The translations under genes were made by a program, and so were the position numbers. From Escherichia coli (GTDB lineage: Bacteria > Pseudomonadota > Gammaproteobacteria > Enterobacterales > Enterobacteriaceae): a stretch of 64,000 nucleotides of DNA. Below, piece after piece: positions 34,542 through 60,018 of this stretch (the stretch's first letter is position 1; each line of letters begins with the position of its first letter). A model generated the notes under the pieces. The model had not been told where the DNA came from. It worked only from the letters and a program-made list of their open reading frames with translations, and did no database searches. The stretch is from NCBI RefSeq assembly GCF_048403405.1, contig NZ_CP183129.1. One strand, given 5' to 3'.

Positions 34542-36456
34542 TCACTCCTCCGGACAGCTTCGCTGCCAGTTCTTTAAGGGTTGGCCGGGTCGTCTCTTCT
34601 TCCCGGGATTTTGCCAGTACAGCCAGATCAAGCTGCCAGCGTTGCACGGACACACGTAATGCCGCGTAGGCATACACCAGGCAGTCCAGCGCTTCGTTAC
34701 GCCGCTTTTTGTTATCCCACAGCAGACGCATCTTTCCTTTTTCCCACTTCTCCACAAGCTCTTCCGCGACCAGTTGCTGCGCCTCTGTCTGCGAAAAAAT
34801 CTCCGGATCATCAGGAAAACGGATGGCATACGACGTGGCTTCATCCGCAGGCGTGGGCTCGGCTTTCATACGGGCATAGAGAATTTCTTTTGCGGTGTCC
34901 GTCCCCACTTCACACAGATAAACGCCCCGCTGATTGCGGGTTTTCGGCATGGTGATCACCGGCTTGCCATAGACAGACGCGCCTTTTACCGGCAGCACAC
35001 GGAAAACACCGTGTTTTTTTGACCTCTGGTAGACGATTTCACCATCGATCCCCCCGGTGTCCCAGCAGACACGGGAAATGGTCATTTCGGTGCCATCCGC
35101 ATGGCGGTATTTTTTGTTGATCGCCGCATCCACACGTAACAGCGTCTCTTCCTCATCAGGACGCCCCATAATGATGATTTTATCCACCAGAAAAGCTTCC
35201 TCTCCCGGTGCCCATCCCCAGACATACATCTCAAAACGGTTTCGCTGCGAGTCAATGCCCGCCGTCAGATAAACCACCCGGGCAGGCACCGCCGCCGTGT
35301 AACGCACAACCTTATCCATCAGCACCTGGTGATCGAGTTTTTCGCCCACGGCCTCTTCCCAGGTCTCGCCCAGCGTGGTGTTCACAAAGGTTTTCAGGCC
35401 GTTGGGATCTTTCAGTGCATCCAGCCAGTCATAGACTATCTGTACCCAGGTGGTGAACGGACTGTACGCTGTCCAGATATGGAACGTGATGGAGCGCGGC
35501 GGCGGAATTTCATTATCCGCGGCGCTGAAAAACGTCAGACCGTCACGGGTCCACATCCCCGTGTTTTCACAGATCCACCGCCCGTTGCTCTGGTCAAGCT
35601 CAGACTGATGGATCACGCAGCCATGATGTTCACAGAGGTAGAAAACGCTTTCGGGGCTGTCCTTCTCCCATTTAAGGCCAAAAGGCGTGGATTCATCGCC
35701 AAATTTCAGATACTGCTCCTCCCCACAGTGTGGGCAGGGCACATAAAAACGCATGAAATGCGCCGACTCGTTGGCCGCTTTTTCGATCTGGCAGGTGCCT
35801 TTGATTTTAGGCGTCGAGCCGCGAATGGATTTGGGCCATACAGAGCCCTCAATACGTTTATCCCCAAGCAGGGTTGGCGAACCCTCTTTTTCGACATCCG
35901 GTTCGAACGAGGAAAGTTCGTCATAGCAGACCACGTCCACGGATTTTTCACGGTAGTTTTTGGCGGCAGCGCCGCCCAGGCACCAGAAACCCACACCCGA
36001 TGAAAAGCGTTTCAGCGTGAGGGTATTGTCACGATGTTTACGCCCCAGCCATGGAAAAAGGTCTTTCAGACATGGCACATCCCGAATCGTCGCCTCCACG
36101 TGAGACTTCATAAAATCTTCAGCGGCAGAATCCGTGGGCTGAAAAAGCAGACTGTTTCGGGATTTATGCTCAATAAAATACCCGACCACCCCCAGCAACA
36201 TCTTTGTATAGCCAACACGGGCAGATTTAATCAGATTAACAGTCCGGATCTGATCATTCCCCATGCTGTTCATGATGGCGATCTGGAACGGCAGCGTTTT
36301 CCATTCTCCCTCACCATATGAAGATTCTTTAGGCAGATAATAATTTTGATCAGCCCATTCAACTGGCGTCACCGGCAATGCCCTTATCAGGGGCTGTAAT
36401 GCTGTTGTGACAGCACTCATCATATTATTCAGTTGTTGCTCTGATATATTCATCGA
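34525..36456 (-). CDS. A: terminase large subunit A
   Basis: Start set at MNISEQQLNN... ; collinear with lambda gpA (EWADxNYYLPKES, Walker-type ATPase, C-terminal nuclease). Confidence 0.95.
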   Translation of the reverse strand, partial: SMNISEQQLNNMMSAVTTALQPLIRALPVTPVEWADQNYYLPKESSYGEGEWKTLPFQIAIMNSMGNDQIRTVNLIKSARVGYTKMLLGVVGYFIEHKSRNSLLFQPTDSAAEDFMKSHVEATIRDVPCLKDLFPWLGRKHRDNTLTLKRFSSGVGFWCLGGAAAKNYREKSVDVVCYDELSSFEPDVEKEGSPTLLGDKRIEGSVWPKSIRGSTPKIKGTCQIEKAANESAHFMRFYVPCPHCGEEQYLKFGDESTPFGLKWEKDSPESVFYLCEHHGCVIHQSELDQSNGRWICENTGMWTRDGLTFFSAADNEIPPPRSITFHIWTAYSPFTTWVQIVYDWLDALKDPNGLKTFVNTTLGETWEEAVGEKLDHQVLMDKVVRYTAAVPARVVYLTAGIDSQRNRFEMYVWGWAPGEEAFLVDKIIIMGRPDEEETLLRVDAAINKKYRHADGTEMTISRVCWDTGGIDGEIVYQRSKKHGVFRVLPVKGASVYGKPVITMPKTRNQRGVYLCEVGTDTAKEILYARMKAEPTPADEATSYAIRFPDDPEIFSQTEAQQLVAEELVEKWEKGKMRLLWDNKKRRNEALDCLVYAYAALRVSVQRWQLDLAVLAKSREEETTRPTLKELAAKLSGGVNGYSR

Positions 36457-36934
36457 GTAAATCCGGTAATTTATCCCCCGCCCGCGCACACTGATTTGCC
36501 CCCTTCGCAATAAGGGTTTTCAGATGGTCAAGATGGCGCGGTGTTAAATCAGGAAACTGTCGCTGCATGGATAAAGGGATGGAATCAAGCGTACTGGATA
36601 ACGCCATTGCCAGCTTGCTGAGGGCAAAAATACAGAACCCGGTATCAATAAGTTTTCCTTTTGACACCTCATTTTTTAACTGCTGTGTAACAGCCTGTTC
36701 TGCTGTCAGTTCCCATCTGGCAATAAGCAATTTCTCCTCATAGTCGTCTTCGCTATCGCCATCAGGCACATCGTTTTTACTTCTTCTCAGATACGATATG
36801 TAAAAATCGCGCCAGGCATCCAGATCCAGTTGCCCTCGCTTATTCGATATCGGGGCACCCGGCAATTTCTGCAATCTGCGAAGCTGGCGATCGGTCAGAC
36901 TTAAATGCCTGGCAACTTCAGTCTGCGTAGCCAC
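36425..36934 (-). CDS. Nu1: terminase small subunit Nu1
   Basis: 169-aa ORF adjacent to cos; C-terminal half similar to lambda Nu1. Confidence 0.85.
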   Translation of the reverse strand: MATQTEVARHLSLTDRQLRRLQKLPGAPISNKRGQLDLDAWRDFYISYLRRSKNDVPDGDSEDDYEEKLLIARWELTAEQAVTQQLKNEVSKGKLIDTGFCIFALSKLAMALSSTLDSIPLSMQRQFPDLTPRHLDHLKTLIAKGANQCARAGDKLPDLLDEYIRATTE

Positions 36935-37117
36935 TCCTCACCTCGCAAAAACTCTCACTTCACAATCACAACAAAACCGGTCATGTCCGGCTTACATGTC
37001 TATTTTTTGTGCATGTCCGGTTCACAGAAGACCTCTTTTTTTATTTTTCATATAGTTAACTTGAAGAGAAACCGGACATGGTTCCCGGAAAATTTTCATA
37101 AATAGCGAAAACCCGCG

Positions 37118-37129
37118 AGGTCGCCGCCC
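37118..37129. other. cos site (cosN 12-nt cohesive end, GGGCGGCGACCT on minus strand)
   Basis: Minus strand of 37081-37160 reads ...CGGGTCCTTTCCG..GATCC.ACAGGTTACGGGGCGGCGACCTCGCGGGTTTTCGCTATTTATGAAAATTTTCCGG, matching the recalled lambda genome ends. Confidence 0.85.
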
Positions 37130-37277
37130 CGTAACCTGTTGGATCGACGGAAAGGACCCGAAAACGAGAATAATTATCACTTACAGCAAGAATCGAATCT
37201 GATCTATTATGGTGCTTGCTATTATGTGCCGGCACAAGTGCGTCGTTTACCGTCATTTCACACAGAGGCATCATCAA

Positions 37278-37529
37278 ATGAAAATCAGAAATATTCTCGC
37301 TATCTCCCTTGCAACATCATCCTTCAGTTGCCTGGCATTTAAATCCTCGCCCAATGTGCTACCAGGACCAACGAATCAACTAACTGCGGTAGAAAGTAAA
37401 ATTATCGGACATTTTTATGCCCCACACAGTGCATTACCCGGAACAACCATCACAGGGACATGTGACGCCTCCCCCGTCCCGGGATGCACCTGTCCGTTTT
37501 GTACTATGCTGCGTAGCCAAAACCGATAA
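37278..37529 (+). CDS. hypothetical secreted Cys-rich small protein (83 aa, signal peptide)
   Basis: N-terminal MKIRNILAISLATSSFSCLA; C-terminal CDASPVPGCTCPFC cluster; GAGG RBS; candidate promoter TTACAG-N18-TATTAT upstream. Confidence 0.35.
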   Translation: MKIRNILAISLATSSFSCLAFKSSPNVLPGPTNQLTAVESKIIGHFYAPHSALPGTTITGTCDASPVPGCTCPFCTMLRSQNR

Positions 37530-37590
37530 CATCCGCATTTACCTGGTATTACATGATGAGTTCACGCAGCGACTGATAGAGGAAGGAAAG

Positions 37591-37770
37591 ATGGTTAGTA
37601 AAAGCAAGGCGCATTGCCGCCGCATGCTGCAGGCATTGCAACAGACGAGAGCAGGTATTTTTGACCAGTTGGAAAACTGCCAGCATACTTTGCCCGAGTA
37701 TATCGCCATCTCATCGGAAACCAGTGCAACTCTTATTCATCGGGTTCCACCAGAGAAAAAGAAGAAATGA
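37591..37770 (+). CDS. hypothetical 59-aa protein
   Basis: ORF with strong RBS (AGAGGAAGGAAAG) following the secreted peptide gene; hairpin immediately downstream. Confidence 0.3.
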   Translation: MVSKSKAHCRRMLQALQQTRAGIFDQLENCQHTLPEYIAISSETSATLIHRVPPEKKKK

Positions 37771-37892
37771 ACAGTGAGGCGTTGTGTGGCATACAACGCC
37801 TTCTTCCATCATTCCTCGTCAGCCATGACAAAAATATAACCGCTGGCTCTTTCATTTTTCTCCTGCGTCCAGCCCCTCTCTACCTGGAAGCA

Positions 37893-38219
37893 TCAAGGAC
37901 GTGACGGCGTAAAGATAAATTGTCTCTTCACTCCCTGACAGGGGCGATTCTTTTCAAATCGCCATTTCGCCATGGCCTTCACCACTTCATCACGAAACAA
38001 ATTATGAGGCTCTGAGCGGAGAAAAACGATCCGTGTCACAGTCCCATCAGCACCAATATCGAACTTAACCTCAACCAGCCCCTTGATATAATTTGCTGCA
38101 GCATATTCCGGATATCGTGGATACACCGTCACTAATTGCCGGGGCTCATCAGCTTTTTGCTGCGAGCATCCCACTGCCAGGACAGATAACAGAAAAAGTA
38201 GTAAAAGGCGTCTTTTCAT
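37893..38219 (-). CDS. lipoprotein with TonB C-terminal-like domain (108 aa)
   Basis: Signal peptide + lipobox (LLLLFLLSVLAVGC, Ser at +2); body aligns to TonB C-terminal domain (YPxxA...G.V.VKFDxxxDGxV...P...F..EV..AM..WRxE). Confidence 0.6.
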   Translation of the reverse strand: MKRRLLLLFLLSVLAVGCSQQKADEPRQLVTVYPRYPEYAAANYIKGLVEVKFDIGADGTVTRIVFLRSEPHNLFRDEVVKAMAKWRFEKNRPCQGVKRQFIFTPSRP

Positions 38220-38529
38220 TTTTATTCCTACGGGTCTTATTCTGACAATATATCCTGTGTTCCAGACTGCCACATCACCACATCCTGTGCCATTATCTGA
38301 CTCACATTACATACATCGCATCGGGATACAGTAGTAGCACTTTCTGTAATACAGCTTCCTGTTTCTTCCACCATCGCACCGGGATAAACCCGCGAATCAT
38401 TAACGCGGTAAAAACCCGGTGTGCATCGTTTTTAATTATCCCCGCACACTCGCGCAGAGGAGTCTCCCTGTCGGGCTGCGGTCTCTGTTAATGAGGGAAT
38501 ATAGCGACGATACGGCGCATCAACAAAAC

Positions 38530-39292: not shown

Positions 39293-39484
39293 AGTCAACC
39301 TCAACAGAATTCGTTTACACTTCGCCATGTTCTCCCTTGCCTTACTCAAGGTCAGAAACACAAAACCTCGCTTGGTGCCAACAAACGGGGTTTTTACTTT
39401 TATTCACTTACGTTTCGCCAGTTCGCAGGATTTCGTGTTATCCGCCCGCGTGGCCATTCCTCATTTTTCAGCAAAATATTCTGC

Positions 39485-40018
39485 TTATCTGTCGATACCC
39501 CAGCACGCCAGCGCGCTCTCCTGGTCACGACGGGATACCTGACCGTAACAGTTGTTTGAACGAATACGGCAGTCTCTGCCACCGTCCTTAATCCACCAGC
39601 GAATCGCTTCGCAGGCACCTTTTCGATCACCAGCATTAATTCGTCTGTAAAACGTCGACGGGAAACACTTACCGGGATCAATGTTGTACGGACAGAATGA
39701 CGCGATCCCCGCTTTCTGGGGTTCGGTCAGCGGCACTCTGATGTTTTTCTCCACCCACGCCAGCGCTTTATCACGCTCAATGGCGTTAACCTGGTCGCAT
39801 TTTTCCTTCGACAACTTCATGCCCGGAACGACAGGTTTGCCATCCACCATGATGGCACCACGGCAGATGGTCCAGATACCTGCACCATCACGGTATGCCG
39901 TGGTGTGGTTGCCTTCCTTTTCATCCAGAAACTGGTCGAGAATGTCAGGCGCAGGCGCACCAGCGGCAATCAGCGCCAGAACGGCAGCCGACAGGCCGTA
40001 TTTGATTTTGGTGTTCAT
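39485..40018 (-). CDS. R: SAR-endolysin (GH24 lysozyme R)
   Basis: 177-aa ORF; N-terminal Gly/Ala-rich weakly hydrophobic SAR segment then T4-lysozyme-like E...D...T catalytic pattern (EKEGNHTTAYRDGAGIWTICRG). Confidence 0.85.
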   Translation of the reverse strand: MNTKIKYGLSAAVLALIAAGAPAPDILDQFLDEKEGNHTTAYRDGAGIWTICRGAIMVDGKPVVPGMKLSKEKCDQVNAIERDKALAWVEKNIRVPLTEPQKAGIASFCPYNIDPGKCFPSTFYRRINAGDRKGACEAIRWWIKDGGRDCRIRSNNCYGQVSRRDQESALACWGIDR

Positions 40019-40054
40019 GGATATATTAAATATTCAGCCGCTGTCCCTGGCCCA

Positions 40055-41661: not shown

Positions 41662-41921
41662 GGTTCTTTCCACCATCTGAAAAATGATTCTTTAAAATAC
41701 CTGACATGTAATACAGAAAAAACACAAAACCATACCTTAAATAAAAACCTCATCATCAAGCAGATATGCATGGATAAACTACAAGACGAGATATAAACCA
41801 CCCTGCATTTAAATAAACAATAAACAACATCAGAAAAATAATTCTGCTCTATGGTTTACAATCAAAAATATCATTTATACTTTTCAGAACATCACCAGCA
41901 AGGCATAAACAAGGAAACTAA

Positions 41922-42257
41922 ATGAAGTGGATTGTGATTGATACAGTTATCCAGCCATCATGCGGAATATCTTTTTCAGTCATATGGAGTAAAATAAAAT
42001 TAATAATCTGGTATCAATCGGATGCTTTCTTACCTCCTGAAAGTATATTTACACTGACTCACACAGGTATCATGCTCAATAACAAAGTGCTACCTGTAAC
42101 CATTTACAACGTAGTACCATTCAATAAAACATTCTGGAATTTAATCAAAAACAGCCAGGAATGCCCTACAAATACAGATAACGTATTGAATGAATGCTTT
42201 AATAACCGTTGCACTCTGCAAATATGTCCTTATGGGCTAAAACAACAAAGTCCATAA
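41922..42257 (+). CDS. hypothetical Cys-containing protein (111 aa) in AT-rich island, opposite strand to late operon
   Basis: AAGGAA RBS 6 nt before ATG; very AT-rich upstream region; no recognisable family. Confidence 0.4.
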
Positions 42258-42270
42258 GGAGTTTACTCAC

Positions 42271-42313
42271 ATCTGACAAAATCAATATAAACAGCCCCTC
42301 CGGAGAGGGGCTG
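42271..42313 (-). terminator. intrinsic terminator (minus strand) upstream of lysis cassette
   Basis: Hairpin CAGCCCCTC-CGGA-GAGGGGCTG followed on minus strand by TTTATATTGATTTT. Confidence 0.5.
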
Positions 42314-42610
42314 GAGAGTGGCGCTATGTGCCATTGCATGGTGCCGGGTGCCTCCCGGTGAATTCAGTACCAGCACCTGAATCCGCGATTATCCCATATA
42401 CCTACTCGCTGATTGCCCCTCCGCACAGGGGGATTCACCATGCCAGTTTCTTTTAACAAACTCCCCGCAAACCAGACAACAGTCAACCGCCTGAATTGTG
42501 AAGTATTTAAAAATTTCTCCCGCTAACTGATACCCGGCTAACAGTCTGGCGTTTTCTTTTTCAGCAACGGGAAAGCAACAACCACCACACCCACCAGCCG
42601 CCCATTTACC

Positions 42611-44087: not shown

Positions 44088-45146
44088 TTATGCTTTCCAC
44101 TTCAGAACACCCGAATTTCTCGCGTGCATTAAAAAACGAATCAGCAACAACAACTGACTACCGTGTTTTTCTTCAAAATCTTTTACCCCGGCGTGTAGTT
44201 CGTTATGGCATTTACGACACAGCGGAATAACAAACAAATCGTCAGCCTTTGTTCCCATCCCTCCCAGTCCATGACCAATGATGTGATGCGGATCATCTGC
44301 CTGATTGCCACACGTCATGCATTTCTGCGTTTTTACCCAGCGCGTGTATACAGGCATCTCTTCCCGTTGTGGTTTCTGGCGCTGGAGATACTGAGCCGGA
44401 GATTCCGGATCAACGGCAATGCTGACCACCGTCTTTTCCTGTGGTGGGTTCTGTTGCTGGTGGGCGTGAGGCAGCGGCGCAAGATTTTTTGTGCGCTGTT
44501 TCAGTATGCTGGTGGCGGTCTGCTCTCCCGGTACGATGTCGCTTTCACGGTACATTGAGCGGATTTTTTCCGCACGCAACCCCAGCGAACGACGTAATAC
44601 CGCTTCCGGTAGCGCGTCCGCCACCTGATTGCGGACCGCCCACCAGGATAATTCAGCCAGCGATAATTCCCGTTCCTGCGAGCCATTCATTGCATGGCGT
44701 ATGACGTCAATCATCCATGCAGACAGGTTTTGGTGAGCAAGTTGCCCGAGTGATTCGGAGGTCTGGTCGCGCAGCTGGTTGTCGCAGTGCCAGCACAACA
44801 CCATTGCGCCGGTACCATAACGGTGAATGACGGTTTCACTGTGGTGATAATCGCCGTGTGGCCACTGGCAGGATTTAACATGGCGCAGTAACCAGTCAGA
44901 CAATGCGCCAGCGCCACCAGCAGCACGAATCACTCGTTCGTCGCTGAAAAATGGCAGTAATGATTTATCCTCCGCCAGCGGCTGGCGAACGGCAGGAACG
45001 ACCCCGGACGACAGATTACGCATGCTTTTCGGTTCCGGCTCCACCAGTACCCGGGTATTGTGGAATACCGGCATGGATTCACGGCCCGGTTTTAGCACCA
45101 CCAGCCCAAGTTCCGGTACCAGAACAGGTCGAAGTAATACCCGCAC
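44088..45146 (-). CDS. DUF968-like prophage protein with C-terminal HNH-like zinc motif (YdfU-like)
   Basis: 352-aa ORF; C-terminal CMTCG ... HHIIGHGLGGMGTKADD ... CRKCHNELH; same neighbourhood (Q, rem-like, hok) as Qin ydfU. Confidence 0.7.
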   Translation of the reverse strand: MRVLLRPVLVPELGLVVLKPGRESMPVFHNTRVLVEPEPKSMRNLSSGVVPAVRQPLAEDKSLLPFFSDERVIRAAGGAGALSDWLLRHVKSCQWPHGDYHHSETVIHRYGTGAMVLCWHCDNQLRDQTSESLGQLAHQNLSAWMIDVIRHAMNGSQERELSLAELSWWAVRNQVADALPEAVLRRSLGLRAEKIRSMYRESDIVPGEQTATSILKQRTKNLAPLPHAHQQQNPPQEKTVVSIAVDPESPAQYLQRQKPQREEMPVYTRWVKTQKCMTCGNQADDPHHIIGHGLGGMGTKADDLFVIPLCRKCHNELHAGVKDFEEKHGSQLLLLIRFLMHARNSGVLKWKA

Positions 45147-45147
45147 G

Positions 45148-45426
45148 TTACCTCCAGATGCGTTGCTGGAATGTGCGGGACGGACGCGGTGGCCGTTCGG
45201 AGTAAGGGAGCCTGACGGAGATTATCCAGTGACGATAATCGAGGCTGAGGGCTTTCTTAATCTCGTATCCGTGTCTGCGGTAGCACTGAATTAGCCACTC
45301 GGCCTGTTCTTCAGTGCATGGGGGATGCTGGTACCAGTCTGACTTAAATGCATGAGAATACCGCTCGTGCGTGTGGGCAAGAACGGTCGAATTATCATGA
45401 TTGTAATATTTTGCGTTGCGTGCCAT
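45148..45426 (-). CDS. hypothetical protein (92 aa)
   Basis: ORF tightly packed after DUF968-like gene. Confidence 0.4.
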   Translation of the reverse strand: MARNAKYYNHDNSTVLAHTHERYSHAFKSDWYQHPPCTEEQAEWLIQCYRRHGYEIKKALSLDYRHWIISVRLPYSERPPRPSRTFQQRIWR

Positions 45427-45492
45427 CGGTTTTCTCCGGTGGCACGGTGTTACTCAGCGGGAGTTCAGCCCCGCGCAAGATTGTAGATGAGT

Positions 45493-45744
45493 TTATTCTT
45501 CTGAAAAAGCAGAAAAGCCAGCTTTTATTCCGATCTCTTTCAATGCCTGTAATGAAGTGACAAACTCACCGTCGTGCAAGATAAATCCGTCCGTCACTCG
45601 GGCATCCACAAAATTAATTAACGCAGCCCCATTTTTTTGCAAACACACAATGCGGTAATGGCTAACAATATTTCCATTTTCAACGCACACAGCATAGAGG
45701 CCATCTTCACAAAAAATTTTACGCAGTTCTTCGATGTTCATCAT
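45493..45744 (-). CDS. hypothetical protein (83 aa), possibly Rem-like by position
   Basis: 83-aa ORF between ydfU-like and hok, the position/size of Qin rem (sequence identity not verifiable from memory). Confidence 0.4.
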   Translation of the reverse strand: MMNIEELRKIFCEDGLYAVCVENGNIVSHYRIVCLQKNGAALINFVDARVTDGFILHDGEFVTSLQALKEIGIKAGFSAFSEE

Positions 45745-45960
45745 CAGAATCCTTCCGGATAATTAGCTCTCCCCTTTAAGGGACCATCCCTCTTATCCCT
45801 GCGCGCTACTTAAGTATTTTTGATTCTATTCCGGCACCGTCCAGAACTTCAAATGCGTTGAAAATAAAAACAAAAACCCGCCGAAGCGGGTTAAGTGCGG
45901 GTGCGTTGAGGATGCCTGCCACATCAGAGGTGGCGAGGGATTTCTCCCTCGCCTGGTCTC

Positions 45961-46116
45961 TTACTCCTCAGGTTCGTAAGCTGTGAAGACAGCGACCTCC
46001 GTCTGGCCGGTTCGGATTCGTACCTCGCAGAGGTCTTTCCTCGTTACCAGTGCCGTCACTATGACGGTTAAACAGATGACGATCAGGGCGATTAACATCG
46101 CCTTTTGCTGCTTCAT
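45961..46116 (-). CDS. hok: Hok/Gef-family type I toxin (51 aa)
   Basis: Translation MKQQKAMLIALIVICLTVIVTALVTRKDLCEVRIRTGQTEVAVFTAYEPEE is a canonical Hok-family peptide; not in the ORF track (below size cut-off). Confidence 0.85.
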   Translation of the reverse strand: MKQQKAMLIALIVICLTVIVTALVTRKDLCEVRIRTGQTEVAVFTAYEPEE

Positions 46117-46129
46117 AGCCTGCTTCTCC

Positions 46130-46230
46130 TTGACCTTTCGGTCCGTAAGAGGCTAATCTCTATGTGTCGCATAGATATGGCCTCAGATTAATGTTAAGCG
46201 TCTTGCAGGACGCGTAATGTTAACTGGGGC
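46130..46230 (+). ncRNA. sok: expected Sok-type antisense RNA / mok leader region of hok locus (location approximate)
   Basis: By analogy with hok/sok loci the antisense RNA overlaps the hok mRNA leader; exact ends not determined. Confidence 0.3.
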
Positions 46231-46374
46231 TTTTCTCTATCTGCCTTTTGGTGTTCATGCCTGAGACAGATAGCCTCAAGCACCCGCAGTTATTCTACTT
46301 AACTAAGATTTCCCCGCAAACCGTTTTTGTCCGGCACAGTAAATATCCAACTAAACCAATGGCGTTCGCTGTAT

Positions 46375-52319: not shown

Positions 52320-52842
52320 ACAAACCCCTGGCAGACATTTGTTTATCTGCAAAGTAATATTGATATTGCTGACGATACGCATGCTTGAAAGCAATAGCTT
52401 TTTCTATAAGCTCGTCAGTCTCACGTTCCACAACAGCTGGATCCGCAAAAAGCAGCCCGGACTCCACCACATCGCCATATTCTTTGTTTAATCCGGCGAT
52501 CATGTACGTAATGCTTTTTCCATCACTGATCTCACGATACAACCTGAAATCACTAATTCGGATAGCCTCCATAATTGCCGGAATCAGCGCCGTGAATTTT
52601 TTCCGCTTATCCCTGGTGTCGATAGCTTTCCAGCGTTCGAATATCTTCACCCGGTTAACGCCCAGCGCCCGTTGATCAACCTCGCCATCATTAAACGTGA
52701 CGCGTTGAACATCGATGTTCGGGCGTTCTTTCAGAGCCCAGAATGCTTCCGTGATTAATATCGTCGCTTGCTCCTGTGTCATTCCTGGTCGACATACCCA
52801 GGCATCCAGAGCCTCACAAACCTGTTCAGGGGTGATTTTCAT
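52291..52842 (-). CDS. hypothetical protein (183 aa) in cII position
   Basis: ORF translationally coupled to cro-like gene, upstream of O. Confidence 0.4.
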   Translation of the reverse strand: MKITPEQVCEALDAWVCRPGMTQEQATILITEAFWALKERPNIDVQRVTFNDGEVDQRALGVNRVKIFERWKAIDTRDKRKKFTALIPAIMEAIRISDFRLYREISDGKSITYMIAGLNKEYGDVVESGLLFADPAVVERETDELIEKAIAFKHAYRQQYQYYFADKQMSARGLYEYRCTTMG

Positions 52843-53053
52843 TGTTCAACCGCCCCGCCCGCTTTGCCTTACGATATTCGTCATAAACTTTGGGGTCGTA
52901 CTGAAGTTCCCCGCCGGATGCCTCCTGTAGACGCATCGCGCGACCTTCAGGAACCAGTTTCCCCCATGCAGCAACGCTTGCCAGCCTAACTCCTGCGGCA
53001 TTGGCAAGCTTTGTTTTGCTGCCAAAAAACGCTATAGCATCAATTTTCAACAT
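52826..53053 (-). CDS. dicC: Cro-like regulator (DicC-like)
   Basis: 75-aa ORF divergent from repressor; sequence (FGSKTKLAxAAG.RLAS ... LVPEGRAMRLQEASGGELQYDPKVYDEY) matches recalled DicC. Confidence 0.7.
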   Translation of the reverse strand: MLKIDAIAFFGSKTKLANAAGVRLASVAAWGKLVPEGRAMRLQEASGGELQYDPKVYDEYRKAKRAGRLNNENHP

Positions 53054-53129
53054 ATCGAACTCCTTAGATTTTCCTAAGGAAACTAGATCGTAGAGAAACC
53101 TAAGTCAAGAAAAATTAGAATTACCTAAT
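53054..53129. promoter_or_regulatory. divergent promoter/operator region between dicC-like and dicA-like genes
   Basis: Palindrome TTCCTAAGGAA plus further CCTAAG half-sites. Confidence 0.5.
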
Positions 53130-53537
53130 ATGAAAAACGAAACCTTCGGTGCTCGCCTCTTATACAGGCGTAAAAAATTAAAACTGTCTCAGGCCGCATT
53201 AGGTAAGCTGGTCAAAGTGGCTCACGTAACAATTTCTCAATGGGAAAGAGATGAAACACAGCCAGCGGGGAAGAGATTATTCGCACTGAGCCAGGCGCTT
53301 CAGTGCTCGCCGACTTGGCTTCTTTTTGGAGATGAAGATAAGCAACCAGGCGAACCGATCCCAGATAATCAGCCAGTTAATCTGACAGAAGATCAAAAAG
53401 AGTTGCTTCAACTGTTCGACGCACTGCCTGAGTCAGAGCAAAAGGCTCTGTTGTCAGAGATGCGTGCTCGAGTTGAGAATTTCAACAAACTTTTTGAAGA
53501 ACTACTCAAAGCTCGCAAAAGAAGCGCAAATAAATAA
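53130..53537 (+). CDS. dicA: prophage repressor (DicA-like, HTH-XRE, no S24 peptidase domain)
   Basis: 135-aa ORF; HTH (LSQAALGKLVKVAHVTISQWE); C-terminal SPTWLLFGDEDKQP ... LPESEQ ... EMRARVENFNKLFEELLKAR matches recalled DicA. Confidence 0.8.
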   Translation: MKNETFGARLLYRRKKLKLSQAALGKLVKVAHVTISQWERDETQPAGKRLFALSQALQCSPTWLLFGDEDKQPGEPIPDNQPVNLTEDQKELLQLFDALPESEQKALLSEMRARVENFNKLFEELLKARKRSANK

Positions 53538-53589
53538 CCCTCCCTTTTTTTTCGCCACTCTCTGTAATAAAAAGCACAAACTTTCAAAT

Positions 53590-53660
53590 GCTTGTGTTTT
53601 TTACATCAAAAAACTTAGGTTTTTCTACACAAAAAGCTTGACCATAATTCTTAGGTTATT
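53590..53660. promoter_or_regulatory. second operator/promoter region (CTTAGG repeats) downstream of repressor gene
   Basis: ACTTAGGTTTTTC ... CTTAGGTTATTC repeats with embedded TTGACC; likely promoter of the dicB-type operon. Confidence 0.45.
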
Positions 53661-53743
53661 CTAAATTCTACTCATCAAGACACCGCACGGTGTTCTCAGC
53701 AAACAGTTCCGCTACCCTGGCGTTAAGGGGAAATGAGGTCAGC

Positions 53744-53896
53744 ATGGATACTATCGATCTTGGCAACAACGAATCTCTGGTATGCGGCGTGTTTCCCAAC
53801 CAGGACGGCACGTTTACCGCGATGACGTATACCAGAAGCAAAACGTTTCAAACTGAAGCTGGCGCGCGTCGCTGGTTAACCAGAAACACTGACTGA
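53744..53896 (+). CDS. small protein, YdfA-like (50 aa)
   Basis: MDTIDLGNNESLVCGVFPNQDGTFTAM... with GAGG RBS; first gene after repressor as in the Qin dicB operon. Confidence 0.5.
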   Translation: MDTIDLGNNESLVCGVFPNQDGTFTAMTYTRSKTFQTEAGARRWLTRNTD

Positions 53897-53907
53897 TGAG
53901 GTTGACG

Positions 53908-54282
53908 ATGGAATTTAAAGATTTACCAGTACCATTCCAGGAAATGGCATCGAATGTGGTTCGCTCTCAACTGGCGACTCTTGACCTGAGTACCGTAGAA
54001 AAAGAAACCATCGATACTATATCCGGTAACGTGCGTCGTGCCTTTATCGGTCTGTACGAAGAGAAGCAGCTCTCTGATAACCAGGATTTACATGAAAAAT
54101 ACTTCCTGGAATTAATGGACATCATTAATAAAGGATTTGGCTTGTTAATGAAAAAGAAAGGGATTCGAATAGCTCCCCTTGAAAATCATTTTACAGCGAG
54201 CAGTATTAATTCCTGTGATTTAAAGCATCACACATCCGATGGGAAAGTTGAATCAAACAACAAAATATCAATTAATCATTAA
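53908..54282 (+). CDS. hypothetical protein (124 aa), AT-rich
   Basis: ORF with GAGG RBS before MEFKDL; no family recognised. Confidence 0.45.
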   Translation: MEFKDLPVPFQEMASNVVRSQLATLDLSTVEKETIDTISGNVRRAFIGLYEEKQLSDNQDLHEKYFLELMDIINKGFGLLMKKKGIRIAPLENHFTASSINSCDLKHHTSDGKVESNNKISINH

Positions 54283-54584
54283 TTTATTCACAGGTGAGGT
54301 AGAGTGCGTGCGCCGGACACGGATAAGAATCCGGCACTGACAGTTTACTAAAAAGGATATATCCCTGAAAAGTCAGGGCATAACACGAAAGCGCCCGGCG
54401 AAGTTAGTCTCTCTGTATAGGTCGTCGTTAAATTTAATTCGATCGTGCGCTTCCGGTTGTGGCAATCCGCGAAATGGCGCGGCGGTAAGTATGGCTGGGG
54501 TTTCCTCCATTGCTCCAGAAAATGCACCGGGTTGTCAGGTTGACCATACGCTTAAGTGACAGCCCCGCCACAATACCCATGTGT

Positions 54585-54637
54585 AGTCTTTGGTGGCATC
54601 AGTTCTACTCCGTGACTGCTCTGCCACCCTTTTTAAA
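54585..54637 (+). ncRNA. dicF: DicF-like small RNA (3' stem-loop/terminator region conserved)
   Basis: TTTGGTGGCATCAGTTCTACTCCGTGACTGCTCTGCCACCCTTTTT closely matches recalled DicF 3' portion, with compensatory stem changes GGCGG/CCGCC to GGTGG/CCACC. Confidence 0.55.
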
Positions 54638-54812
54638 GTGAATTTTGTGATGCGGTGAATGCGGCTAAGCGCACGCGGAACAGTTAAAACCAAAAACAGT
54701 GTTATGGGTGGATTCTCTGTATCCGGCGTTAATTGTTAACTGGTTAACGTCACCTGGAGGCACCAGGCACCGCATCAACAAAGTTCACTTCGGTGATGAA
54801 AGGTAAGAGAAA

Positions 54813-55667
54813 ATGTTGAATGTAGCTATTGAAAACCAGAACGGGTGGAATTATAGTGCACCTGCACCTCATAAAACGGGTGCCGGGCGTGGAAACCCGG
54901 AATTCAATCAAGCGCATAACCGCGCTCAGGCGGTTTTTTTATGCGTCAAGCACAGCCACATTCAGATTATGGTGGGGCGTGCAGGGCAGCTGCAAGGCTG
55001 GCCGGATTCTTGGTTGACCGGTATTTCCACCCCTGTACGCCTCACCACCCTTATGGTCGTGGAAAACCTTGGTGGTGAGTTATTAATACTCAACCAAGAG
55101 GCTGCCATTATGGCTACTATCCCTACCCTTTCTCACCCTGACGTAACCATCGAAAATGGTCGCGCTGTCACTACGTCTGTTGCGGTTGCAGAGTTCTTCC
55201 GCAAAATGCACAAGGACGTTCTGCGCAAAATTGAAACGCTAGAATGCTCTGAAGATTTTAACGAGCGCAATTTTACGCCCGTTACCTACACCGACGCCAA
55301 AGGCGAAAAACGCCCCATGTACCAAATCACCAAAAACGGCTTCGTTTTCCTGGTGATGGGGTTCACAGGTAAAAAAGCCGCAACTTTCAAAGAAGCCTAC
55401 ATCGCTGAGTTCGATCGCATGGAGGAAGAACTGCGCCAGAATAACGCCCCGTCTCCCGACAAAATGATTCACGGGGACGGACGCACCCTGGTTATCCGTC
55501 TCGACGAACACGGCAATATCAAATTCACTGAAACCGTTCCTGACGGCGCAATGGTCTGCACCCTGGATACCTTCCGGTTTTATCTGGAGAAACAAGGATG
55601 GACTCTTGTAAACCGGAGCGCAATTAAAAATATGACTGTGGAGCAATTGCTAAAAATTCATTGTTGA
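54813..55667 (+). CDS. Rha-family phage regulatory protein (possible antirepressor); start uncertain
   Basis: C-terminal 185 aa carry Rha-like motifs (AVAEFF.K.H..VLR.I ... MGFTGKKA..FKEAYI.EFDRMEEEL); alternative start at 55110. Confidence 0.65.
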   Translation: MLNVAIENQNGWNYSAPAPHKTGAGRGNPEFNQAHNRAQAVFLCVKHSHIQIMVGRAGQLQGWPDSWLTGISTPVRLTTLMVVENLGGELLILNQEAAIMATIPTLSHPDVTIENGRAVTTSVAVAEFFRKMHKDVLRKIETLECSEDFNERNFTPVTYTDAKGEKRPMYQITKNGFVFLVMGFTGKKAATFKEAYIAEFDRMEEELRQNNAPSPDKMIHGDGRTLVIRLDEHGNIKFTETVPDGAMVCTLDTFRFYLEKQGWTLVNRSAIKNMTVEQLLKIHC

Positions 55668-55677
55668 GGACGCGATA

Positions 55678-55866
55678 ATGGAAACGTCACTACCAAACGT
55701 TAATACGTCTGACGGGTGCTTTAATATTGGTGTTCTGCTCAGTAACAGGGATTTCACCGAGGATGCAATCAATATGAGAAAATATGAACCCTACCTGCTG
55801 AATGACAATTCCATACTCTCCAGAATTGCCCTTCTTAAACTCGGTATTTTCGGAGAGTGGCGATGA
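55678..55866 (+). CDS. dicB: DicB-like cell division inhibitor (62 aa)
   Basis: LPNVNTSDGCFNIGV..SN..FTEDAINMRK matches recalled DicB; follows DicF-like RNA. Confidence 0.7.
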   Translation: METSLPNVNTSDGCFNIGVLLSNRDFTEDAINMRKYEPYLLNDNSILSRIALLKLGIFGEWR

Positions 55867-56066
55867 ACACATTATTCGTACTCATTCTGACTGTACATCT
55901 CAATACTGGTGAGTCGCTTGATGCAATCACCGGCATGTACAACTCAATGAAAGAATGCATGGCTGCCGCAGCGGAACAGAAAATTCCCGGCAACTGTTAT
56001 CCGGTCGATAAAGTTATTCACATGGACAATAACGAAATCCCGGCGGGGCTTAAAACAGCACCGTAA
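55863..56066 (+). CDS. small protein, YdfD-like by position
   Basis: ORF overlapping dicB-like stop; hydrophobic N-terminus. Confidence 0.45.
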   Translation: MNTLFVLILTVHLNTGESLDAITGMYNSMKECMAAAAEQKIPGNCYPVDKVIHMDNNEIPAGLKTAP

Positions 56067-56143
56067 TTAATATCCGGTTTCATTTTTATATGCCAGCAAT
56101 GGCAGGGATTTGTTCACCCTTAAATCTGTAATGAGGTTTATCA

Positions 56144-58661: not shown

Positions 58662-58931
58662 ATGAGCGAACAGTACCTGATAACGCTCGACGAGTGGAAA
58701 CCAAAACGGTTCAGTCTCCCAATAACAAACACTACCCTGGTGAAATACGGAAAACTAGGATACATCGTTCCAAGACCACAAAAAATTCGTGGGCGTTGGC
58801 TGATAGATCGCCGAGCAGTATTTGTTGGGCCTGGTGAAACGGGAATTGCGCCGGAAATTCATACTGGCGATGATGATGCACTGAAGGAGATTTTAACTCA
58901 TGTCACCGAGGCCACGAAAAAACAGCACTGA
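58662..58931 (+). CDS. xis: excisionase Xis-like
   Basis: Small basic ORF overlapping int start; pattern L.TL.EW ... TV.R ... P.P.K.GR similar to lambda Xis. Confidence 0.6.
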   Translation: MSEQYLITLDEWKPKRFSLPITNTTLVKYGKLGYIVPRPQKIRGRWLIDRRAVFVGPGETGIAPEIHTGDDDALKEILTHVTEATKKQH

Positions 58932-60018
58932 CGTAGCCGGTCTTTACGAAAAGTTTGATCGCAGAACTGGCAGAGTTTACTACCAGTATAAAAATCCTGT
59001 GACTGGAAAATTTCACGGACTCGGAACAGACAAAGGTAAGGCAGAAAAAATCGCTTCCACAGCCAATCAGCGAATAGCTGCAGCAGAAGCTGAATATTTC
59101 ATGCGCAAAATTGATGAAAGTCCGTCAGCAACAAAACGTCGGGGTATCAGATTAAAGGCATGGGTTGATCGATATCTGAAAATACAGGACACGCGACTGA
59201 AAAATGGAGATATTGCAGCTACAACTCACAAAGAAAAAACTCGAATGGCTGCATACCTGGTTTCCCGTCTGGGAAACCACCCATTGAAAGAACTGGAAGT
59301 AAGAGACTTTGCATTAATACTGGATGAGTGGCTGGATAAAGACATGGTCAGCACAGCGAGAGTAAATCGTGGATTATGGGTTGATATTTATAAAGAAGCA
59401 CAGCATGCAGGGGAAGTTCCTCCTGGATGGAATCCTCCGGAGGCTACCCGTAAACCGATCCCTAAAGTAACCAGAGCCAGGCTCACCATGGAAGACTGGC
59501 AAAAAATTTACAATGCAACGCCTGAAAAACACTTTATCCGTAACGCAATGCTTCTTGCGATTGTTACTGGTCAGCGCCGTGATGACATTTGCCACATGCG
59601 TTTTTCAGATGTGTGGAACGAACACTTGCATATCACCCAGGGAAAAACCGGAATGCGTCTGGCGTTACCGCTTACACTACGCTGTGATGCCATTGGGATA
59701 ACGTTAAAAGAAGTTATTGATGGGTGCCGAGACAGAATATTAAGTCCATATCTAATCCATAGTCGGCACCAGAAACAACCGAAGCCGATGAGTAAAGACA
59801 ACCTGAGCGACTACTTTGCCAAAGCACGGGATCTGGCTGGGATAATTCCACCAGCAGGAAAAACTCCGCCAACATTTCATGAACAACGCTCTCTATCAGA
59901 ACGGCTGTACCGTGCACAGGGTATCGATACAAAAACATTACTAGGACATAAAGTCCAGGCAACCACCGATCGCTATAACGATACTCGAGGTCAGGAATGG
60001 GTTAAGTTGGTTATTTGA
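58900..60018 (+). CDS. int: tyrosine integrase (lambda Int family)
   Basis: 372-aa ORF; Arg-His-Arg-Tyr catalytic residues (VTGQRRDD, HEQRSLSERLY, LLGHK...TDRYNDTRGQEW); adjacent to attR. Confidence 0.9.
   Translation: MSPRPRKNSTDVAGLYEKFDRRTGRVYYQYKNPVTGKFHGLGTDKGKAEKIASTANQRIAAAEAEYFMRKIDESPSATKRRGIRLKAWVDRYLKIQDTRLKNGDIAATTHKEKTRMAAYLVSRLGNHPLKELEVRDFALILDEWLDKDMVSTARVNRGLWVDIYKEAQHAGEVPPGWNPPEATRKPIPKVTRARLTMEDWQKIYNATPEKHFIRNAMLLAIVTGQRRDDICHMRFSDVWNEHLHITQGKTGMRLALPLTLRCDAIGITLKEVIDGCRDRILSPYLIHSRHQKQPKPMSKDNLSDYFAKARDLAGIIPPAGKTPPTFHEQRSLSERLYRAQGIDTKTLLGHKVQATTDRYNDTRGQEWVKLVI

What the first reader, a model, noticed from the sequence alone, without database searches (positions are those of the whole stretch)
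37081..37160. cos region is essentially lambda-identical despite non-lambda early and late control modules
The cohesive-end site and flanking cosB/cosQ sequence match the recalled lambda genome ends almost base for base, while immunity, Q and lysis modules are Qin/P21-like. This illustrates module exchange, and means the prophage could be packaged by, or package for, lambda-type terminases.
Basis: partly seen in the sequence, partly recalled or inferred. Interest (0 to 1): 0.3.

Follow-up and report, generated by a model that had tools for sequence, protein, structure and literature searches.

The report
Lambda-type cos core, non-lambda recognition site
The prophage's DNA-cutting site shares only the universally conserved core with phage lambda; the adjacent recognition site and the protein that reads it are a different, common but apparently unstudied type, so lambda's packaging enzyme probably could not start packaging this DNA.

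Summary
The 80 bases are a real cos site on the minus strand, with the nick between window 37130 and 37129. They match lambda at 73/80 positions and phage 21 at 74/80. Lambda identity is confined to cosQ, cosN and I2 (-31..+45), the core shared by lambda-like phages; 4,430 of 5,426 complete E. coli genomes match it.

It holds three exact CATGTCCGG repeats at +50, +110 and +140, with an IHF-like site between the first two. That is the lambda/21 R3-I1-R2 layout with a different repeat sequence.

The adjacent TerS matches Nu1/gp1 only in its C-terminal two-thirds, and its N-terminal DNA-binding domain is a different type. Sequence on both sides is phage 21-like (TerL 93%; right end 98.7%). So a ~750-bp cassette (cosB, TerS, TerL N-terminus) has been swapped into a 21-type module.

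In 13 related loci, TerS residue 20 co-varies with one repeat base (Arg with G; Asp/Asn/Thr with T).

Published lambda/21/N15 genetics place initiation specificity in TerS-cosB. Cross-packaging with lambda is therefore unlikely, apart from termination. The cos core is ordinary; the cassette is a modestly interesting variant.

The parts
37153..37159 (-). cosQ heptamer GGGTCCT, at -30..-24 from the nick
   Evidence: 7/7 identical to lambda and phage 21. Same position as the cosQ annotated in phage 21 record OL657228. Conservation 0.996 across 37 cassette variants.
37118..37129 (-). cosN: the 12-nt 5' cohesive-end sequence GGGCGGCGACCT. Inferred top-strand nick between window 37130 and 37129.
   Evidence: 12/12 identical to lambda and 21. 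The phage 21 and Perceval records end or start exactly here. Invariant in 37 variants. The nick position is inferred by homology, not measured.
37081..37117 (-). I2 spacer (+13..+49), including TATGAA at +30..+35
   Evidence: +13..+45 is identical to lambda and differs from phage 21 at +18, +24, +42 and +44. Conservation 0.979. In lambda, replacing bp 18-50 lowers yield about 1e5-fold and bp 30-35 is the critical part (PMC4856287).
37065..37080 (-). R3-equivalent TerS site (+50..+65), with core CATGTCCGG at +50..+58 in direct orientation
   Evidence: Exact 9-mer. Invariant across 37 distinct cassette variants, while +46..+49 varies. Same position as R3 (bp 50-65) of lambda and 21 (PMC9026076). 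Present at +50/+51 in all 11 related loci with a cos anchor.
37046..37058 (+). Candidate IHF site (I1 equivalent), TTTCATATAGTTA, at +72..+84 on the phage minus strand
   Evidence: 2 mismatches to WATCAANNNNTTR, which is weak alone because 74% of shuffles reach that level. An IHF match lies at the same position and strand in 10 of 11 family loci, with 0-1 mismatch in 9, and coincides with the annotated I1 of lambda and 21.
37008..37023 (-). R2-equivalent site (+107..+122), with core CCGGACATG at +110..+118, inverted relative to R3
   Evidence: Exact inverted 9-mer. Same position and orientation as phage 21 R2 (107-122). Inverted copy at +107/+108 in all 11 anchored family loci. Conservation 0.92.
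36973..36993 (-). Third R site (R1 position, +137..+157): exact inverted CCGGACATG at +140..+148 overlapping a direct CATGACCGGTTT at +146, forming the quasi-palindrome CCGGACATGACCGG
   Evidence: A third inverted copy is also present in PhiR12_1, the Enterobacter locus L017 and the Klebsiella locus L012. Conservation 0.95.
36425..36934 (-). terS, terminase small subunit, 169 aa, GTG start. The N-terminal DNA-binding domain (about residues 1-55) is of a non-Nu1 sequence type. The C-terminal part is Nu1-like.
   Evidence: Pfam Phage_Nu1 matches residues 49-150 only. BLASTP to Nu1 and gp1 aligns only from residue 64-73 onward. phrog_57 (terminase small subunit) matches the full length, and the N-terminal 70 aa alone score E=6e-11. 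The AF2 model shows helix-turn-helix-loop-helix at the N-terminus. The protein is 100% identical to TerS of the isolated phages PhiR12_2 and PhiR12_4.
34525..36453 (-). terL, terminase large subunit, 642 aa, overlapping terS by 29 nt. Its N-terminal 30-60 residues belong to the swapped cassette.
   Evidence: Pfam GpA_ATPase and GpA_nuclease. 93% identical to phage 21 gp2 and 66% to lambda gpA. Residues 1-30 are only 10/30 identical to 21, while residues 141-640 are 487/500.
36372..37129 (-). Packaging-specificity cassette (I2, cosB, terS and the first ~27 codons of terL), flanked on both sides by phage 21-like DNA
   Evidence: No BLAST match to phage 21 or lambda apart from +1..+45, while window 28737-36371 is 95% and 37130-38519 is 98.7% identical to phage 21. 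At least 80% of the cassette is covered in 1,147 of 5,426 E. coli genomes and it is 97.5% identical in five PhiR12 phages.

Best explanation
This is the cos site of an apparently intact, ~48-kb lambda-like prophage inserted between potB and potC of an E. coli chromosome. It has the standard lambda-family layout: cosQ, cosN, I2, then a complex cosB (R3, IHF site, inverted R2, third R site), followed by terS and terL.

The part that matches lambda is the family-wide core, which serves the TerL nuclease and packaging termination. Recognition is different. cosB carries CATGTCCGG repeats instead of lambda's CGTTTCC or phage 21's CATGTCGG. The core of the first repeat starts 3 bp closer to cosN than in lambda or 21. 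The TerS that should read these repeats has an N-terminal DNA-binding domain unlike that of lambda, 21, N15, phi80 or Gifsy-1.

Proposed mechanism (inferred by analogy with lambda): TerS dimers dock on R3 and the inverted R2 across an IHF-induced bend. This positions the 21-like TerL to nick cosN and make 12-nt 5' cohesive ends. cosB, TerS and the TerL N-terminus move together as one recombination cassette, here set into a phage 21-type head and right-end backbone.

Consequence: the prophage most likely has its own packaging-initiation specificity and would not be packaged from this cos by lambda-specific terminase. Any lambda-family terminase already translocating along the DNA could still terminate here.
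For: Shown directly:
- The identity map around the nick.
- Three exact 9-mers within 99 bp, against 0.53 expected in the whole 64-kb window.
- The positions of all three, and the orientations of the first two, match the annotated R3 (50-65), R2 (107-122, inverted) and R1 region of phage 21.
- The R3 element is invariant across 37 distinct variants of the cassette, while adjacent bases vary.
- In 11 related loci from E. coli, Klebsiella, Salmonella, Citrobacter and Enterobacter, the repeats sit at +50/+51 (direct) and +107/+108 (inverted) even where cosN differs.
- TerS residue 20, inside the predicted second helix of the HTH, co-varies with one repeat base: Arg with ATGTCCGG in 6/6 loci, and Asp/Asn/Thr with a T at that base in 7/7. 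It is one of only three DBD columns that separate the two classes.
- An IHF-consensus site lies at +72/+73 in 10/11 loci.
- TerS homology to Nu1 and gp1 is limited to the C-terminal two-thirds.
- Phage 21-like sequence flanks the cassette on both sides.
- The same cassette is joined to 27 different right-end sequences.
- The TerS protein is 100% identical in isolated PhiR12 phages, and the ORFs are intact.

From the literature:
- Initiation specificity resides in TerS-cosB, with more than 1e3-fold discrimination between lambda and 21 despite identical cosQ and cosN. Termination is cosB-independent (PMC4669245).
- R3 spans bp 50-65 and the cosN-cosB spacing is critical (PMC9026076).
- I2 is essential (PMC4856287).
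Against: - No experiment on this cassette was found. TerS binding to the repeats, the nick positions and the specificity are all inferred.
- The fold search gave no significant match. The best hits were weak MerR-type winged-HTH proteins at E about 0.4-2, and the model has mean pLDDT 73 and pTM 0.31.
- The window's own IHF match is weak, with 2 mismatches.
- The co-variation rests on 13 loci that are not phylogenetically independent. Geometry inferred from lambda (E24 contacting bp 56, with the helix C-terminus towards the 5' end of R3; PMC9026076) does not obviously place residue 20 over the co-varying base.
- Asymmetric cross-specificity exists in this family, since N15 terminase packages lambda DNA (PMC4669245). 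Some cross-recognition therefore cannot be excluded, especially with 21-type elements whose repeat shares CATGTC.
- Two relevant Feiss-lab papers (Sippy 2015; Vahanian 2017) could not be read, so prior description of this class cannot be ruled out.
Confidence: 0.75

Rival explanations
1. One reading: the cos region is functionally lambda-type, so lambda-specific terminase could package this prophage and this prophage's terminase could package lambda DNA.
For: cosN is 12/12, +1..+45 is 45/45 and cosQ is 7/7 identical to lambda. Termination at a downstream cos is cosB-independent (PMC4669245), so a lambda terminase could cut here when terminating. N15 terminase packages lambda DNA, which shows that cross-specificity can occur (PMC4669245).
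Against: There are no lambda R sequences, and +46..+190 is 40/145 identical to lambda. The TerS DNA-binding domain is not matched by the Pfam Nu1 model or by BLAST to Nu1. True lambda-type cos sites (K-12 Qin and DLP12) keep both the lambda R sequences and a Nu1-identical TerS. Lambda fails to package 21 or N15 DNA, with yields of about 1e-4, despite a shared cosQ and cosN (PMC4669245, Table 6).
Confidence: 0.05
2. The cassette is a diverged phage 21-specificity element. The repeat CATGTCCGG is close enough to 21's CATGTCGG, and TerL is 21-like, so 21-type and this terminase would cross-package.
For: The half-site CATGTC is shared with phage 21 R2 and R1. Both TerS proteins have Arg at the aligned helix position (gp1 R21; residue 20 here). 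TerL is 93% identical to gp2. The right end is identical to phage 21.
Against: The TerS N-terminal domain shows no BLAST similarity to gp1. The repeat differs by an extra C and its core starts 3 bp closer to cosN; in lambda, even a 3-bp spacing change is severely defective (PMC9026076). The TerS C-terminus and TerL residues 1-30 also differ from 21, at 10/30 identity, so a 21 TerS would probably not pair with this TerL. The cassette has no BLAST match to phage 21.
Confidence: 0.12
3. The site is a decaying remnant in a cryptic prophage. The repeats are relics or chance matches and the cos is no longer used.
For: Several pseudogene fragments are annotated in the prophage (YdfR, DUF1737, a DicB fragment and a tail-fibre-assembly fragment). 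No induction data were available.
Against: terS, terL, portal, protease, capsid, tail, lysis, Q, replication, int and xis ORFs are annotated intact. R3 is invariant across 37 variants. The identical TerS and a 97.5%-identical cassette occur in five phages recorded with K-12 or C as host. The repeats keep their position across genera.
Confidence: 0.05

Closest known systems
Phage 21 cos and terminase (OL657228 / M81255)
   Same: The right end, cosQ and cosN are identical through +17. The layout R3 (50-65), I1 (74-86), inverted R2 (107-122) and R1 is the same. TerL is 93% identical and the head genes are 95% identical in DNA.
   Different: The repeat is CATGTCCGG rather than C(A/G)TGTCGG, and the R3 core starts at +50 rather than +53. 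The third repeat is inverted. The TerS N-terminal domain is unrelated at BLAST level. The TerS C-terminus and TerL residues 1-30 have diverged. I2 carries the lambda alleles at +18, +24, +42 and +44.
Phage lambda cos (NC_001416) and the K-12 cryptic prophage cos sites of Qin (nohA) and DLP12 (nohD)
   Same: cosQ, cosN and I2 (+1..+45) are identical. The overall order cosQ-cosN-I2-cosB-terS-terL is the same.
   Different: Lambda, Qin and DLP12 have CGTTTCC-type R sequences and Nu1 or near-identical NohA/NohD. The window has neither. TerL is only 66% identical to gpA.
Escherichia phages PhiR12_1, _2, _2_star, _4 and _5 (PV340549-PV340554)
   Same: Same cassette at 97.5% DNA identity. The TerS protein is 100% identical in PhiR12_2 and PhiR12_4. 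The three repeats lie at +50, +110 and +140.
   Different: The cosQ-side flank and I2 alleles differ (A at +18 and +24). The records are not cos-terminated, and I found no paper describing their packaging.
N15 / Monarch packaging specificity (PMC4669245)
   Same: Another lambda-like cos family with conserved cosQ, cosN and I2 but its own TerS-cosB recognition. It is a precedent for distinct and asymmetric specificities.
   Different: N15 has a simple cosB (R3 alone plus a remote rR2) and no IHF site. Its TerS matches the window's only from residue 59 onward.
cos sites of Gram-negative PICIs read by Rpp-TerS (PMC6739421, PMC9026076)
   Same: Lambda-like cosQ and cosN joined to a non-lambda cosB, showing that the core and the recognition site are separable modules.
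   Different: PICIs have only an R3-like site and encode Rpp, which lacks a TerL-binding tail. Here a full-length TerS with a Nu1-like C-terminus and a tripartite cosB are present. No rpp-like gene was seen next to cos.

Membership tests
Lambda-like cos site (12-nt 5' cohesive ends; cosQ-cosN-I2-cosB) | [quoted passage not shown] | tested here: met
   GGGCGGCGACCT, 12/12 identical.
Lambda-like cos site (12-nt 5' cohesive ends; cosQ-cosN-I2-cosB) | The 7-bp cosQ about 30 bp upstream of the nick | tested here: met
   GGGTCCT at -30..-24, the same position as the cosQ annotated in phage 21.
Lambda-like cos site (12-nt 5' cohesive ends; cosQ-cosN-I2-cosB) | An AT-rich I2 segment between cosN and cosB, with the critical bp 30-35 | tested here: met
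   +13..+45 is identical to lambda, including TATGAA at +30..+35 (PMC4856287).
Lambda-like cos site (12-nt 5' cohesive ends; cosQ-cosN-I2-cosB) | A complex cosB: R3 near bp 50-65, an IHF site, and an inverted R2 | tested here: met
   Repeats at +50 (direct) and +110 (inverted). An IHF-like site at +72, supported mainly by 10 of 11 related loci.
Lambda-like cos site (12-nt 5' cohesive ends; cosQ-cosN-I2-cosB) | R1 in the same orientation as R3 | tested here: inconclusive
   The exact third copy is inverted (+140). A direct copy with one mismatch overlaps it at +146. Relatives L017 and L012 also have inverted third copies.
Lambda-like cos site (12-nt 5' cohesive ends; cosQ-cosN-I2-cosB) | Followed by Nu1-family terS and gpA-family terL | tested here: met
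   Pfam Phage_Nu1 (E=1e-18, partial), GpA_ATPase and GpA_nuclease.
Lambda-like cos site (12-nt 5' cohesive ends; cosQ-cosN-I2-cosB) | Virion DNA actually ends in 12-nt 5' overhangs at this site | not testable with these tools
   Requires sequencing of virion DNA ends.
Lambda packaging specificity (cosB-lambda / gpNu1) | Lambda R sequences (CGTTTCC...) at R3, R2 and R1 | tested here: not met
   None present. +46..+190 is 40/145 identical to lambda. Compare Qin and DLP12, which do have them.
Lambda packaging specificity (cosB-lambda / gpNu1) | A TerS N-terminal winged-HTH of the Nu1 sequence type | tested here: not met
   Pfam profile positions 1-61 are unmatched. BLASTP alignment to Nu1 starts at residue 73.
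Phage 21 packaging specificity (cosB-21 / gp1) | Phage 21 R sequences (C[A/G]TGTCGG) at the 21 positions | tested here: not met
   The core is CATGTCCGG, with one extra C, and starts at +50 rather than +53. +46..+190 is 34/145 identical to 21.
Phage 21 packaging specificity (cosB-21 / gp1) | A gp1-type TerS DNA-binding domain and a gp1/gp2 interaction interface | tested here: not met
   BLASTP alignment to gp1 starts at residue 64. TerL residues 1-30 are 10/30 identical to gp2.
N15-type simple cosB | A single R3, no IHF site, and a remote rR2 inside terS | tested here: not met
   Three repeats and an IHF-like site lie upstream of terS.
PICI cos (Rpp-dependent) | cos followed by an rpp gene (135-153 aa, no TerL-binding tail) in a phage-inducible island | tested here: not met
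   cos is followed by a full-length TerS with a Nu1-like C-terminus and by TerL, within a complete prophage.

The most novel reading that the evidence does not exclude
The CATGTCCGG-type cosB and its TerS form a packaging-initiation specificity class distinct from the experimentally defined lambda, 21 and N15 classes. It is present in about a fifth of complete E. coli genomes, including O157:H7. It has at least two sub-specificities, toggled by TerS residue 20 (Arg against Asp/Asn) and one base of the repeat (G against T). That base lies at the same core position as bp 56, one of the two base pairs known to separate lambda from 21. If so, co-resident lambda-like prophages that share cosN would be insulated from packaging one another's DNA, and the cassette would be a natural example of the TerS DNA-binding-domain swapping that Feiss and colleagues anticipated.
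Probability: 0.5. Interest if true: 0.4.

Novelty: new variant of a known kind. Interest (0 to 1): 0.3.

Why it matters
A lambda-identical cohesive-end core is not evidence of lambda packaging compatibility. The element that decides which DNA is packaged lies just outside the reported interval, and here it is different.

Knowing which prophages share a TerS-cosB specificity determines three things: which co-resident prophages, PICIs or cosmids can be mobilised by which helper; how polylysogens such as O157:H7 avoid or exploit cross-packaging; and which cos fragments would work in packaging-based tools.

The Arg20/G co-variation gives a directly testable recognition contact in a common but apparently unstudied class.

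Tried and rejected
1. I assumed from database names ("prophage Qin DNA packaging protein NU1-like") that this TerS is the K-12 NohA type. Rejected: Qin nohA and DLP12 nohD encode near-identical lambda Nu1 and sit next to true lambda cosB sites.

2. A full-text search for CATGTCCGG returned only p53-site and primer papers. A search for cosB with O157 returned nothing relevant.

3. A sequence search of the PDB found no meaningful TerS match. The Foldseek PDB search gave no hit at E<=1e-3, only weak MerR-type winged-HTH matches. The winged-HTH assignment therefore rests on helix pattern and PHROG homology, not on a fold match.

4. NCBIfam has no model matching this TerS.

5. The viral-contig scan returned 80 loci with nearly identical TerS. 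This was no use for helix/repeat co-variation, but it was useful for repeat conservation and for showing many different right-end partners.

6. Sippy et al. 2015 and Vahanian et al. 2017 are not held in the library, so I could not check whether this class was already catalogued.

7. I looked for the source paper of the PhiR12 phages. PMC12315714 does not mention them.

Full report
**What is at the coordinates**

The sequence at window 37081-37160 is a cos site read on the minus strand. I built the circular end-joins of lambda (NC_001416) and phage 21 (OL657228) and compared them base by base. This places the top-strand nick between window 37130 and 37129. The 12-nt cohesive-end sequence GGGCGGCGACCT occupies 37118-37129.

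Within the interval, identity is 73/80 to lambda and 74/80 to phage 21.
- cosN is 12/12 to both.
- The cosQ heptamer GGGTCCT (-30..-24; window 37153-37159) is 7/7 to both.
- +1..+45 is 45/45 to lambda and 41/45 to 21.
- -31..-1 is 31/31 to 21 and 28/31 to lambda.

Outside the interval the picture changes sharply. -150..-32 is 119/119 identical to phage 21 and 28/119 to lambda. +46..+190 is at random level to both (40/145 and 34/145). Those bases are not specifically lambda-like, and the claim that cosB matches lambda is wrong.

**Why the core is conserved**

The lambda-identical stretch is the cosQ-cosN-I2 core. In the phage collection, lambda, HK629, HK630, DE3, Perceval, 2H10, Kati, Turner, phiSTEC1575-Stx2k and others are 100% identical over +1..+45, and their similarity stops at +45/+46. 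Of 5,426 complete E. coli genomes, 4,430 have a match to this region.

The literature explains the conservation.
- cosQ, cosN and I2 are strongly conserved in lambda, 21 and N15 and are the elements needed for termination (PMC4669245).
- Replacing I2 bp 18-50 lowers lambda yield about 1e5-fold, and bp 30-35 is the critical part (PMC4856287). That hexamer, TATGAA, is intact here and in every related locus I examined.

**What occupies the cosB position**

Three exact copies of CATGTCCGG lie at +50 (direct), +110 (inverted) and +140 (inverted). A direct one-mismatch copy, CATGACCGGTTT, starts at +146. The 9-mer occurs four times in the whole window against 0.53 expected. Three copies within 99 bp is far beyond chance; this last point is my own estimate from that rate.

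The positions of all three, and the orientations of the first two, match those annotated for phage 21: R3 at 50-65, I1 at 74-86, R2 at 107-122 (inverted) and R1 at 150-166. They also match the published R3 of lambda at bp 50-65 (PMC9026076).

The repeat is neither lambda's CGTTTCC nor 21's C(A/G)TGTCGG, and the core of the first repeat starts 3 bp closer to cosN.

An IHF-consensus match lies at +72 on the phage minus strand (window 37046-37058). In the window it has 2 mismatches, which is weak alone. A match at the same place and strand is present in 10 of 11 related loci, with 0-1 mismatch in nine. It coincides with I1 of lambda and 21.

**The terminase**

terS (window 36425-36934, minus strand, 169 aa, GTG start) matches Pfam Phage_Nu1 only over residues 49-150. 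It aligns with Nu1 and gp1 only from residue 64-73 onward, at 46% and 40% identity.

The N-terminal 70 residues still match the PHROG terminase-small-subunit family phrog_57 (E=6e-11). An AlphaFold model (pLDDT 73) shows helix, helix, loop, helix at the N-terminus, which is the winged-HTH pattern. The Foldseek search gave no significant hit. Its weak top matches were MerR-type winged-HTH domains, so the fold assignment is plausible but not proven.

By tblastn against 50,697 phage records, lambda, 21, N15, phi80, Gifsy-1, HK629/630 and mEp237 match only the C-terminal part. Only the five PhiR12 phages match closely over the full length (100% identity in PhiR12_2 and PhiR12_4), with distant Pseudomonas and Aeromonas phages at 31-43%.

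TerL (34525-36453) is 93% identical to phage 21 gp2 and 66% to lambda gpA. Its first 30 residues are only 10/30 identical to gp2, while residues 141-640 are 487/500.

**Mosaic structure**

BLAST of the window against complete phage 21 shows 95% identity over window 28737-36371, which covers terL from about codon 28 through the head genes. It shows 98.7% over window 37130-38519, the phage 21 right end. There is no match between them apart from the 45-bp core.

So a ~750-bp cassette (I2 alleles, cosB, terS and the terL N-terminus) sits inside a phage 21-type backbone. This is the unit expected to travel together. TerS reads cosB through its N-terminus and binds TerL through its C-terminus (PMC4669245).

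The cassette is common.
- At least 80% of it is covered in 1,147 of 5,426 complete E. coli genomes, including O157:H7.
- It is 97.5% identical in the PhiR12 phages.
- In 77 viral-contig loci carrying it, it is joined to 27 different right-end sequences. Only 7 loci have the phage 21 type. Similarity between partners collapses beyond about -40, and all but one variant keep GGGTCCT at a fixed distance from the nick.
- Across 37 distinct variants, conservation is 1.0 for cosN, 0.996 for cosQ, 0.979 for I2 and 1.0 for the R3 element. It is 0.80 for +46..+49 and 0.69 for -61..-32.

**Evidence that TerS reads the repeats**

I retrieved upstream DNA for TerS relatives at 35-81% identity from Klebsiella, Salmonella, Citrobacter, Enterobacter and E. 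coli. In all 11 loci with a recognisable I2 anchor, a direct repeat lies at +50/+51 and an inverted one at +107/+108, even where the cohesive-end sequence differs.

The invariant part of the repeat is TCCGGTT, and the bases 5' of it vary. All six loci with Arg at TerS residue 20 have ATGTCCGG. All seven with Asp, Asn or Thr have T in place of that G (ATTTCCGG, ACTTCCGG and similar).

Residue 20 lies in the predicted recognition helix (residues 15-22) and aligns with lambda N21 and phage 21 R21. It is one of only three DBD columns that separate the two classes, and the only one inside that helix. Locus L100 has a DBD as close to the window's as any Arg-class member (71% identity) yet carries Asn20 and T-type repeats. 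This argues against pure clade structure.

The toggling base is the core position equivalent to bp 56 of lambda and 21, one of the two base pairs shown genetically to discriminate those phages (PMC4669245, Fig. 2 legend).

Caveats: the loci are not independent. Lambda geometry (E24 at bp 56) does not obviously put residue 20 over that base. A direct Arg-guanine contact is therefore a hypothesis.

Published helper-packaging data show that lambda, 21 and N15 helpers fail on each other's cosB, with yields of about 1e-4. The one exception is that N15 terminase packages lambda DNA. Termination at a downstream cos is indifferent to cosB (PMC4669245, Tables 5 and 6). PICI islands likewise combine lambda-like cosQ and cosN with a different cosB that phage TerS does not use without Rpp (PMC6739421).

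By these rules, the lambda-identical core here predicts only that lambda-family terminases could cut this site when terminating. It does not predict that they could initiate on it. A true lambda-type prophage cos looks like those of K-12 Qin and DLP12, which retain lambda R sequences and Nu1-identical NohA/NohD.

This covers window 44230-46130, 52563-56138 and the lysozyme at 39475-40024.

**Context and limits**

The window is E. coli chromosome, 100% identical to strain MS 69-1 and others. The prophage spans about window 11,800-60,100 between potB and potC. Its integrase, excisionase, replication, Q, lysis, terminase, head and tail genes are annotated intact.

No paper describing this cosB/TerS type was found in the searchable library. 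Two relevant Feiss-lab papers could not be read.

My verdict is that the cos core is ordinary and already understood. The adjoining recognition cassette is a common, apparently uncharacterised variant of the lambda-family packaging signal, and its specificity is inferred, not shown.

Noticed in passing
window 37279-37529 (+), immediately to the cosQ side of cos: An ORF that RefSeq leaves unannotated. It encodes about 83 aa: MKIRNILAISLATSSFSCLAFKSS... with a signal-peptide-like N-terminus and a Cys-rich C-terminus. It lies on the strand opposite the phage late genes, inside the segment 98.7% identical to the phage 21 right end. This is a moron-like location.
   Followed up: no
window 54578-54629 (+), 54864-54940 (+), 54965-55052 (+): Rfam gathering-level matches to DicF, isrK and C4 antisense RNA, clustered in the Qin-like immunity-proximal region.
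   Followed up: partly
window 46114-46285 (-) and 42283-42472 (-); 13061-13259 (-): Rfam matches to the sok antitoxin RNA next to hokD, to sRNA STnc100 near the Q and late-promoter region, and to IS009 in the tail-fibre-assembly region.
   Followed up: no
window 41922-42257 (+): An anti-adapter protein IraM gene (RssB/RpoS regulation) is carried as prophage cargo between the Q gene and the holin gene.
   Followed up: no
window about 11,800 and about 60,100: The prophage is inserted between potB and potC of the spermidine/putrescine transporter operon. Integrase is at window 58900-60018 next to potC. The att sites were not mapped.
   Followed up: partly
window 36973-36993 (-); loci L017 and L012: In this family the third R repeat is inverted like R2, whereas in lambda and 21 R1 is direct. 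In the window it is the quasi-palindrome CCGGACATGACCGG, which can be read in either orientation.
   Followed up: partly
loci L015, L100, L018, L019 (upstream of terS): T-class relatives carry a tandem half-site, TTCCGGTTCCGGTT, at the R3 position. The most distant relatives (L018, L019) have it only about 20-27 bp before the terS start and show no recognisable I2 anchor upstream (L019's contig holds only 70 bases there), suggesting a simpler or differently placed recognition site.
   Followed up: no
loci L013-L017, L100-L102: Cohesive-end sequences vary widely among cassette relatives (for example GGGCGACGCGCT, GGGCGGTAGCCT, GGGCGGCGTCCG, GGTGTGCGAGGT). cosQ GGGTCCT and the I2 motif TTATGAAAATTT stay fixed.
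   Followed up: no
window 37893-38219 (-): A TonB C-terminal-domain protein gene is shared with the phage 21 right end (phage 21 CDS 41842-42168). It is prophage cargo of unknown role.
   Followed up: no
window 12295-12963 (+): A class I SAM-dependent methyltransferase gene sits among duplicated tail-fibre-assembly fragments at the prophage's tail-fibre end. It is 97.9% identical to the DLP12 tfaD-ybcY region.
   Followed up: no
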